A DNA stretch of 64,000 bases from contig JAHPZA010000006.1 in NCBI GenBank assembly GCA_019058445.1, positions 992,001 to 1,056,000 on the forward strand, in the 5' to 3' direction. The stretch comes from Promethearchaeota archaeon. GTDB taxonomy: Archaea > Asgardarchaeota > Lokiarchaeia > Sigyniarchaeales > SOKP01. Positions 54,196-62,971 of the stretch are shown here, piece after piece (position 1 is the stretch's first letter; each line of letters opens with the position of its first letter). The notes beneath the pieces are model-generated. The model was not told the origin of the DNA and ran no database searches. It saw nothing but the letters and a program-made list of their open reading frames with translations. The position numbers were made by a program, and so were the translations under genes.

Positions 54196-54327
54196 CGCAA
54201 CGGGAGGGAATTTCGTATTCCAAGAAAATTGGAACAATACTTCGAACCCCCGAGTGCGAAGCACACCAGCTTTCTGGGAGAGAATTCCACTCCAAGCTGG
54301 CGCCGTACCAGGCTAGGCTACCGTTGC
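54196..54327 (-). tRNA. tRNA-Ser(GGA) with introns at 37/38 (54272-54289) and 59/60 (54210-54240)
   Basis: Acceptor GCAACGG/CCGTTGC, G73, long variable arm, anticodon stem CCAGC/GCTGG; BHB geometry at both introns. Confidence 0.92.
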
Positions 54328-62562: not shown

Positions 62563-62754
62563 CTTTTTTTATTCTATTTAGAGATAATTTTAAGCTATAG
62601 TATTAATCTAATTTAAAACACTAATGTTTTTATTAAATTTAAATGTATCTTGACTCTAAATATAAAAAAATTTTTATTTTTTTTATCCTTTTGAGTTTTA
62701 AAGATATAATTAATTATATCATTTATTGAATATAATTAAGCTTACAATAGATTA

Positions 62755-62917
62755 GCTCCCGTAGCTCAGCTTGGTTAAAGCGCGGGTCTTATAAGGCCCT
62801 ATAGACATACATAGAATTTAAAGAAGATTTTCGTGTCTATACTGCATAAACGCCCGAGATCGGGGGTTCGAATGGGTTTTTTGATTTAAAGAAACCCCGA
62901 TATTCCCCCCGGGAGCA
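62755..62917 (+). tRNA. tRNA-Ile(UAU) with introns at 38/39 (62795-62851) and 59/60 (62873-62903)
   Basis: Acceptor GCTCCCG/CGGGAGC, A73, anticodon arm CGGGT-CTTATAA-GCCCG, T arm GGGGG-TTCGAAT-CCCCC after splicing. Confidence 0.85.
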
Positions 62918-62971
62918 GTTATTATTCCTATAATTTGAATAAATATTTTTTTTTTGGTTACTTTAGTGATT

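What the first reader, a model, noticed from the sequence alone, without database searches (positions are those of the whole stretch)
62755..62917. Eukaryote-like tRNA-Ile(UAU) with two non-canonical introns
Seen: anticodon TAT at 62790-62792. A 57-nt intron is best placed at 38/39, where TTAT pairs with intron ATAA and TATAGACA/TGTCTATA forms a stem; a 31-nt intron lies at 59/60. Established: most archaea read AUA with agmatidine-modified tRNA-Ile(CAU) made by TiaS, whereas eukaryotes use intron-containing tRNA-Ile(UAU) with intron-dependent pseudouridylation. Inference: this lineage may decode AUA the eukaryotic way, with the intron guiding anticodon modification.
Basis: partly seen in the sequence, partly recalled or inferred. 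Interest (0 to 1): 0.75.

Follow-up and report, generated by a model that had tools for sequence, protein, structure and literature searches.

The report
Two-intron Asgard tRNA-Ile(UAU), no TiaS
This is a real isoleucine tRNA gene, hidden from standard finders by two introns, that reads the very common AUA codon directly with a UAU anticodon in a Loki-type Asgard archaeon whose whole class lacks TiaS, the enzyme most archaea need for AUA; other archaea are already known to do this.

Summary
Observation confirmed. Window 62755-62917 (+) encodes a 75-nt archaeal tRNA with anticodon UAU. ARAGORN and Rfam miss it.

- No TiaS was found in this genome (92.6% complete) or in any of 41 genomes of its order.
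- Only two CAU tRNAs were found, initiator and elongator Met.
- AUA is the ninth most used codon and behaves as Ile.
- Fourteen distinct homologues across three families keep the UAU anticodon, and each has an intron beside it.

Across the phylum, 145 of 301 sampled genomes have no TiaS match. Relatives of the TiaS gene in the public genome collection include MAGs labelled Heimdallarchaeota and Thorarchaeota.

The "eukaryotic way" is only a resemblance. The same solution is published for Nanoarchaeum, Korarchaeum and ARMAN. No Pus1 orthologue was found, only one TruA-like gene. Anticodon-intron pairing is generic to archaeal splice motifs. No RNA data were available.

This scan has already made the same finding in other Asgard genomes (Odin-, Hel- and Loki-type). 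I found no paper reporting it for Asgard. Verdict: a new member of a known kind, of moderate interest.

The parts
62755..62917 (+). Whole tRNA-Ile(UAU) gene: three exons and two introns, 163 nt, 75 nt after splicing.
   Evidence: Sequence; own scan; homologues.
62755..62794 (+). Exon 1, tRNA positions 1-38: acceptor 5' strand, D arm, anticodon stem 5' strand, loop CTTATAA.
   Evidence: The stretch is 100% conserved in L002 and near-identical in L004, L005, L037 and L038.
62790..62792 (+). Anticodon TAT (UAU), positions 34-36, encoded in the genome.
   Evidence: The same CTTATA loop occurs in all 14 distinct homologues.
62795..62851 (+). Intron 1, 57 nt, at 38/39. The bulge-helix-bulge motif is relaxed: the 5' half is well formed and the 3' cut lies in a 2x3 internal loop.
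   Evidence: Geometry scored (central helix 4/4). Fold centroid (z -3.0). Only a cut at 38/39 gives the A38 that every relative has.
62852..62872 (+). Exon 2, positions 39-59: anticodon stem 3' strand, variable loop AGATC, T stem 5' strand, TTCGAA.
62873..62903 (+). Intron 2, 31 nt, at 59/60 in the T loop. Its motif has the T stem as outer helix, a 3/4 central helix and a 6-9 bp inner hairpin.
   Evidence: minimum-energy fold is T stem plus hairpin, z -2.55. The intron is absent from the L004 homologue.
62904..62917 (+). Exon 3, positions 60-73: T60, T stem 3' strand, acceptor 3' strand, discriminator A73. No CCA is encoded.
62726..62741 (+). A/T-rich TATA-like stretch (TTGAATATAATTAAG) about 15-30 nt upstream; a possible archaeal promoter.
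   Evidence: Read only. This is inference and was not tested.
62946..62955 (+). Run of 10 T, 29 nt after the discriminator; a likely archaeal transcription stop.
   Evidence: Read only. This is inference.

Best explanation
The gene encodes the only AUA-reading isoleucine tRNA found in this Lokiarchaeia (Asgard) archaeon.

Proposed pathway:
1. It is transcribed as a pre-tRNA of about 165-200 nt.
2. The archaeal splicing endonuclease cuts the two bulge-helix-bulge motifs, at 38/39 and 59/60. Published work assigns Asgard archaea the (alpha-beta)2 type with a loop that gives broad substrate specificity.
3. A ligase joins the three exons.
4. CCA is added.
5. The resulting 75-nt tRNA, with anticodon UAU and A37, is charged with isoleucine and pairs with AUA by a standard U34-A wobble-position pair.

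This replaces the usual archaeal route of tRNA-Ile2(CAU) plus agmatidine made by TiaS, which the whole class appears to have lost.

What is shown: the gene anatomy; its conservation; the failure to find TiaS or a third CAU tRNA; heavy use of AUA with Ile meaning.

What is inferred: expression, the exact cuts, charging, and how misreading of AUG is avoided. The last point is unknown; some modification of U34 is likely, but nothing here identifies it.
For: - Gene anatomy: full cloverleaf with conserved U8, A14, GG, U33, A37, TTCGA and A73.
- Both introns sit in motifs with the correct cut geometry and fold better than shuffles.
- Conservation: 14 distinct homologues in three families of the order keep CTTATA. 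Their acceptor stems differ by compensatory changes, for example GCTCCCG/CGGGAGC, GGTCCAG/CTGGACC, GGGATCG/CGATCCC and GAGCCTA/TAGGCTC.
- TiaS: the TiaS_FLD profile matches 0 of 41 genomes of the order, while the control archaea match. tblastn with three full-length Asgard TiaS proteins finds nothing in this genome; the best hit is E 0.08 over 42 aa.
- CAU tRNAs: only an initiator (C7:14171-14338) and an elongator Met (C9:575774-575900) were found. tRNA-Ile(GAU) is at C6:1249076-1249179.
- Codon use: AUA is 33 per 1000 codons, 32% of Ile codons and ninth in rank.
- Codon meaning: in three thermosome paralogues AUA aligns with Ile 29, Val 12, AUA 10, Leu 7 and Met 1.
- Splicing enzyme: a catalytic EndA gene is present. 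Asgard EndA is described as (alpha-beta)2 with the broad-specificity L1 loop (PMC5829648).
Against: - No RNA evidence: no RNA run holding this DNA was on offer, so expression and splice junctions are unverified.
- The 3' cut site of intron 1 is not in a textbook 3-nt bulge. C32 faces C40 if the strict geometry is imposed.
- The assembly is 92.6% complete, and my tRNA scan recovered only about 35 of the roughly 46 tRNAs expected. A CAU tRNA with an unusual intron layout could therefore have been missed.
- An unmodified U34 would be expected to misread AUG. An unidentified safeguard is required.
Confidence: 0.85

Rival explanations
1. The anticodon-adjacent intron is retained because it is needed for modification of U34 and/or U36, such as the pseudouridines of eukaryotic tRNA-Ile(UAU). 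On this view the Asgard system is mechanistically, and perhaps historically, the eukaryotic one.
For: - All 14 distinct homologues keep an intron at 37/38 or 38/39, whereas the 59/60 intron comes and goes.
- Only about a quarter of the tRNA genes I could parse in this genome have an intron in the anticodon loop, and tRNA-Ile(GAU) has none.
- The ARMAN and Korarchaeum tRNA-Ile(UAU) genes also carry an intron (PMC3239211, PMC6000648).
- In family f1 the start of the intron can also pair with the 5' strand of the anticodon stem, with one covarying change.
Against: - Only one TruA-family gene was found, and it scores as TruA (TIGR00071 139 bits; best solved relative is a TruA at E 6e-27; Pus1 entries only at E 7e-10).
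- No guide-RNA family matches the intron, and I saw no C/D boxes by eye.
- Anticodon-intron pairing is a generic part of the splice motif.
- The homologues are related, so shared retention may simply be inheritance.
- MAGs labelled Heimdallarchaeota carry TiaS.
Confidence: 0.12
2. The locus is a decaying or silent tRNA pseudogene, and AUA is read some other way.
For: Standard tRNA finders do not call it. The D stem has one A.C mismatch. There are no RNA data.
Against: - All four stems are intact.
- Exons are conserved while introns diverge across three families, with compensatory acceptor-stem changes.
- No other candidate AUA reader was found, although AUA makes up 3.3% of codons.
Confidence: 0.03
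3. Splicing occurs at other sites, so the mature anticodon is not UAU.
For: The 3' side of the intron 1 motif is relaxed, and the sequence near the 3' end of the intron contains CAT (tgCATaaac).
Against: - The anticodon is contiguous with the 5' strand of the stem in exon 1.
- Alternative registers give 9- or 16-nt loops or lose the central helix; this is my own geometry check on the sequence.
- Relatives with textbook 37/38 motifs give the same CUUAUAA loop.
Confidence: 0.02
4. TiaS and tRNA-Ile2(CAU) exist but lie in the unassembled 7% of the genome, and the UAU tRNA is an extra.
For: Completeness is 92.6%.
Against: - 0 of 41 genomes of the order have a TiaS match, including several scored 98-100% complete and three single-contig genomes.
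- 0 of 91 sampled genomes of the family have one.
Confidence: 0.02

Closest known systems
tRNA-Ile3(UAU) of Nanoarchaeum equitans and Candidatus Korarchaeum cryptofilum (PMC8450103, PMC6000648)
   Same: An archaeal tRNA-Ile with a genomically encoded UAU anticodon that replaces tRNA-Ile2(CAU). The Korarchaeum gene also has an intron.
   Different: The phylum differs (Asgard, Lokiarchaeia). Here there are two introns, one shifted to 38/39 and one at 59/60. The trait covers a whole class, not single genomes.
tRNA-Ile(UAU) of the ARMAN-2, -4 and -5 archaea (DPANN) (PMC3239211)
   Same: UAU anticodon, no TiaS homologue, no tRNA-Ile(CAU), and an intron next to the anticodon. The authors already drew the comparison with eukaryotes. 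A 59/60 intron exists in the same organisms, in tRNA-Cys.
   Different: ARMAN uses an epsilon2 endonuclease and a strict motif at 37/38. Published work assigns Asgard archaea an (alpha-beta)2 enzyme, and the motif here is relaxed and shifted by one base.
Eukaryotic cytosolic tRNA-Ile(UAU). Its intron at 37/38 and its Pus1- and intron-dependent pseudouridines at 34 and 36 are from my own knowledge; the modified anticodon itself is cited in PMC8879553.
   Same: UAU anticodon reading AUA, with a roughly 60-nt intron beside the anticodon that pairs with it.
   Different: No Pus1 orthologue was found here. The splice motif is the archaeal bulge-helix-bulge. There is a second intron in the T loop. 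The modification state is unknown.
tRNA-Ile(UAU) of Mycoplasma mobile and other tilS-less bacteria (PMC3575796)
   Same: The C34-modifying enzyme is lost and replaced by a UAU tRNA.
   Different: These are bacteria with no introns, and they have their own published adaptations.
Multi-intron tRNA genes of Asgard archaea (bioRxiv 10.64898/2026.10.13.758758)
   Same: The genes are heavily interrupted, introns sit at bulge-helix-bulge sites, and standard annotators miss many of them.
   Different: That census never mentions Ile, UAU, AUA or TiaS.

Membership tests
Archaeal elongator tRNA | Cloverleaf with 7-bp acceptor stem, D arm, 5-bp anticodon stem with 7-nt loop, and 5-bp T stem with 7-nt loop, after intron removal. 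| tested here: met
   All stems are paired apart from one A.C in the D stem. The spliced length is 75 nt.
Archaeal elongator tRNA | Conserved bases U8, A14, G18G19, U33, purine 37 and T54-T55-C56-R57-A58. | tested here: met
   Read: T at 62762, A at 62768, GG at 62773-62774, CT-TAT-AA, TTCGA at 62867-62871.
Archaeal bulge-helix-bulge intron | Two 3-nt bulges separated by a 4-bp helix, each cut after the second bulge base, with flanking helices. | tested here: met
   Intron 2 (59/60): outer helix is the T stem, central helix 3/4, inner helix 6-9 bp.
Archaeal bulge-helix-bulge intron | The same motif for intron 1 (38/39). | tested here: inconclusive
   The central helix is 4/4, and the 5' bulge and inner helix are present. 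The 3' cut lies in a 2x3 internal loop, not a clean bulge, so this is a relaxed motif of the published HBh' kind.
TiaS-independent AUA decoding by tRNA-Ile3(UAU) | UAU anticodon encoded in the genome. | tested here: met
   Conserved in 14 distinct homologues.
TiaS-independent AUA decoding by tRNA-Ile3(UAU) | No TiaS gene. | tested here: met
   Not found in this genome (92.6% complete), in 41 genomes of the order, or in 91 sampled genomes of the family.
TiaS-independent AUA decoding by tRNA-Ile3(UAU) | No tRNA-Ile2(CAU): only initiator and elongator Met carry CAU. | tested here: met
   Searches found two CAU tRNAs. My scan is not exhaustive.
TiaS-independent AUA decoding by tRNA-Ile3(UAU) | AUA is used and means isoleucine. 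| tested here: met
   (33 per 1000 codons). (AUA aligns with I, V and L, and with M once in 69).
TiaS-independent AUA decoding by tRNA-Ile3(UAU) | The tRNA is charged with isoleucine. | not testable with these tools
   Indirect only: A73, and a T stem identical to that of tRNA-Ile(GAU).
Eukaryote-type tRNA-Ile(UAU) system | A Pus1 orthologue that modifies positions 34 and 36 on the intron-containing precursor. | tested here: not met
   a single TruA-family gene that scores as TruA.
Eukaryote-type tRNA-Ile(UAU) system | Pseudouridine at positions 34 and 36 of the mature tRNA. | not testable with these tools
   Needs mass spectrometry or chemical mapping of the RNA.
Intron-encoded box C/D guide (as in archaeal tRNA-Trp) | C (RUGAUGA) and D (CUGA) boxes with guide segments inside the intron. 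| tested here: not met
   No such boxes in 62795-62851. No small-RNA family matched even at E up to 5.

The most novel reading that the evidence does not exclude
The anticodon-adjacent intron of Asgard tRNA-Ile(UAU) may be kept because the precursor, and not the mature tRNA, is the substrate for a modification of U34 and/or U36 that blocks AUG misreading. That would be an archaeal counterpart, and possibly the forerunner, of the intron-dependent modification of eukaryotic tRNA-Ile(UAU). The alternative hairpin between the anticodon stem and the start of the intron in family f1 could be part of that recognition.
Probability: 0.1. Interest if true: 0.85.

Novelty: new member of a known kind. Interest (0 to 1): 0.5.

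Why it matters
How a cell tells AUA (Ile) from AUG (Met) is a classic problem of the genetic code, with three textbook answers: lysidine, agmatidine, and the eukaryotic UAU tRNA.

This locus shows that a whole class of Asgard archaea has dropped the archaeal answer. The class uses a UAU tRNA for a codon that makes up over 3% of its coding sequence. About half of the sampled phylum still has a TiaS match. That gives a dated, clade-level switch that can be placed on the Asgard tree relative to the eukaryotic branch. It also gives cultured relatives in which U34 modification and AUG discrimination can be measured.

Practically, the gene is invisible to ARAGORN and Rfam. Automated annotation of these genomes will therefore report AUA as having no reader.

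Tried and rejected
- ARAGORN on the window and Rfam at gathering scores found nothing. Rfam at E up to 5 gave only a 14.9-bit partial tRNA match.
- ARAGORN with intron mode on the genome found 23 tRNAs, several with the wrong anticodon. Rfam tRNA on the genome found 16.
- My first anticodon scan and my first two-intron parser were far too permissive. They became usable only after filtering on the G+C content of the spliced product and on flanks and motif geometry.
- The strict D-arm plus anticodon pattern over 301 genomes hit only 18. D arms are often interrupted or variable, so this is not a census.
- A looser pattern on five TiaS-less genomes of other families gave one plausible hit (G041) and was otherwise uninformative.
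- No RNA holder was listed for this DNA, so I did not lay reads.
- I looked for C/D boxes in the intron and for a functional link to neighbouring genes. The neighbours are a GNAT acetyltransferase and proteins with only weak Pfam matches. Nothing came of either.
- I considered AUA reassignment to Met and rejected it.
- I tried to name the anonymised families through TiaS relatives. This gave only group labels (Heimdall, Thor, Baldr, Bathy) and no one-to-one mapping.

Full report
**Observation.** The sequence at window 62755-62917 folds into a complete archaeal tRNA once two inserts are removed.
- Exon 1 (62755-62794) holds the acceptor 5' strand GCTCCCG, U8, a D arm with A14 and GG, the anticodon stem strand CGGGT and the loop CTTATAA. 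TAT lies at 62790-62792.
- Exon 2 (62852-62872) holds GCCCG, the variable loop AGATC, GGGGG and TTCGAA.
- Exon 3 (62904-62917) holds T60, CCCCC, CGGGAGC and discriminator A.
- The spliced RNA is 75 nt and 61% G+C, in a genome of 31% G+C.

ARAGORN and Rfam do not report the gene. At a permissive threshold Rfam gives only a 14.9-bit partial tRNA match. My own scan anchors on a T arm and a complementary acceptor stem and then allows introns.

**The introns.** I scored the bulge-helix-bulge geometry: two 3-nt bulges, each cut after its second base, around a 4-bp helix.
- Intron 2 (62873-62903, 31 nt, 59/60) fits well. The T stem is the outer helix, the central helix has 3 of 4 pairs, and the inner helix GGGTTT/AAACCC extends to 9 bp in the minimum-energy fold (z -2.55).
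- Intron 1 (62795-62851, 57 nt) has a perfect central helix, T33-T36 with ATAA at 62846-62849. Its 5' bulge is A37, A38, g. Its inner helix is GC/GC plus TATAGACA/TGTCTATA. The centroid fold shows the anticodon stem plus this hairpin (z -3.0).
- The 3' cut of intron 1 lies in a 2x3 internal loop rather than a clean bulge, so the motif is of the relaxed kind.
- The canonical 37/38 register does not pair.
- Only a cut at 38/39 yields A38. All relatives have A38, whereas a 37/38 cut would give C38 here.
- Published work assigns Asgard archaea an (alpha-beta)2 endonuclease with the loop that allows relaxed motifs to be cut (PMC5829648). A catalytic EndA gene is present in this genome.

**Relatives.** A DNA search and a pattern search of related genomes gave 14 distinct homologues, laid out.
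- Eight are in the window's own family. Their introns are 47-57 nt at 38/39, with the central helix TTAT/ATAA.
- Four are in a second family and two in a third. These have textbook 37/38 introns of 28-59 nt with the central helix CTTA/TRRG.
- All keep the loop CTTATA.
- Exons are conserved while introns diverge.
- Acceptor stems differ by compensatory changes.
- The T-loop intron is present in some genomes and absent in others, for example L004.

This rules out a pseudogene or a chance fold.

- The TiaS_FLD profile finds nothing in this genome (92.6% complete) or in any of 41 genomes of the order. It does match four control archaea.
- Three full-length TiaS proteins taken from other Asgard genomes give no significant tblastn match here.
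- My tRNA scans find exactly two CAU tRNAs: an initiator (AGCGGGG..., C7:14171-14338) and an elongator Met (C9:575774-575900). They also find tRNA-Ile(GAU) and this single UAU tRNA. The scan recovered about 35 tRNAs, so it is not exhaustive.
- AUA is the ninth most frequent codon: 33 per 1000, 32% of Ile codons, and more frequent than AUG.
- In three thermosome paralogues AUA aligns with Ile, Val and Leu, as ATT and ATC do. It aligns with Met once in 69 comparisons. So AUA means Ile.

**Phylum survey.** Among 301 genomes of the phylum that are at least 80% complete, 156 have a TiaS match and 145 do not.
- The split follows families. None of the sampled genomes of the window's class has a match (family f1 0/91, f2 0/9, f4-f7 0/6). 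The same holds for several other families (f8 0/4, f17 0/14, f18 0/3, f21 0/2, f25 0/2).
- Other families almost always have it (f12 65/71, f10 24/27, f26 19/19).
- TiaS relatives found in the public genome collection, in a search with four Asgard TiaS proteins (first sequence from family f10), are labelled Heimdallarchaeota, Thorarchaeota, Baldrarchaeota and Bathyarchaeia.
- My strict pattern for the UAU tRNA was too narrow to serve as a census.

**Comparison with what is known.**
- tRNA-Ile(UAU) replacing tRNA-Ile2(CAU) is published for Nanoarchaeum and Korarchaeum (PMC8450103, PMC6000648).
- For ARMAN the same paper notes the lack of TiaS, the 37/38 intron and the likeness to eukaryotes (PMC3239211).
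- A recent preprint describes heavily interrupted Asgard tRNA genes but never mentions Ile, UAU or TiaS.
- No paper in the library combines TiaS with Asgard.
- Earlier reports of this scan reached the same conclusion for Odin-, Hel- and Loki-type genomes. The finding is therefore not new within the scan.

**The intron-guided modification idea.** Nothing I could test supports it.
- The genome has one TruA-family gene, and it scores as TruA rather than Pus1.
- The intron has no guide-RNA match.
- Pairing of anticodon bases with the intron is inherent to the splice motif.

Some points remain suggestive.
- Every homologue keeps the anticodon-side intron, while only about a quarter of the parsed tRNA genes in this genome have one there.
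- In the window's family the first bases of the intron (AGGCCC, or AGACC in L005) can pair with GGGUCU of the 5' exon. This forms an alternative hairpin, which is the minimum-energy fold.

I leave this idea as the novel case at about 10%.

**Surroundings.** The gene stands alone in a 409-nt gap between two minus-strand genes. One is a GNAT acetyltransferase; the other has only weak Pfam matches. An A/T-rich TATA-like stretch lies upstream and a run of ten T lies 29 nt downstream. The promoter and terminator readings are inference only.

**Verdict.** The core interpretation, AUA read by UAU without TiaS, is supported. The eukaryote-specific mechanism is not supported. This is a new member of a known kind, of moderate interest.

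Noticed in passing
window 54196-54327 (-): A second hidden tRNA gene, tRNA-Ser(GGA). It has an 18-nt intron at 37/38 and a 31-nt intron in the T loop. ARAGORN and Rfam both miss it.
   Followed up: partly
window 62784-62799 and the same place in L004, L005, L007, L034, L037, L038: The first 5-6 bases of intron 1 (AGGCCC; AGACC in L005) can pair with GGGUCU of the 5' exon. This gives an alternative hairpin with a UAUA tetraloop, and it is the minimum-energy fold. It is kept within family f1, with one covarying change, and is weak or absent in the other two families. Its purpose is unknown.
   Followed up: partly
L030 (G242:C1:387315-387344 region): An intron-less, 73-nt tRNA(UAU)-like gene with an odd D loop (no GG) in an Asgard genome that does have TiaS. 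It could be an extra, foreign or decaying tRNA.
   Followed up: no
own genome, e.g. C6:1249076-1249179, C1:26019-26121, C4:172445-172581, C6:580014-580148, C9:721033-721213, C6:1243614-1243744: Introns of 29-31 nt at 59/60 in the T loop recur in at least eight tRNA genes of this genome. Their sequences look unrelated.
   Followed up: no
L008, L010, L011, L017, L031, L033 versus L001-L007, L034, L037, L038: The anticodon-side intron of tRNA-Ile(UAU) sits at 37/38 in two families and one base further (38/39) in the window's family. The central helix shifts from CTTA/TRRG to TTAT/ATAA. This is a one-base slide of an old intron.
   Followed up: partly
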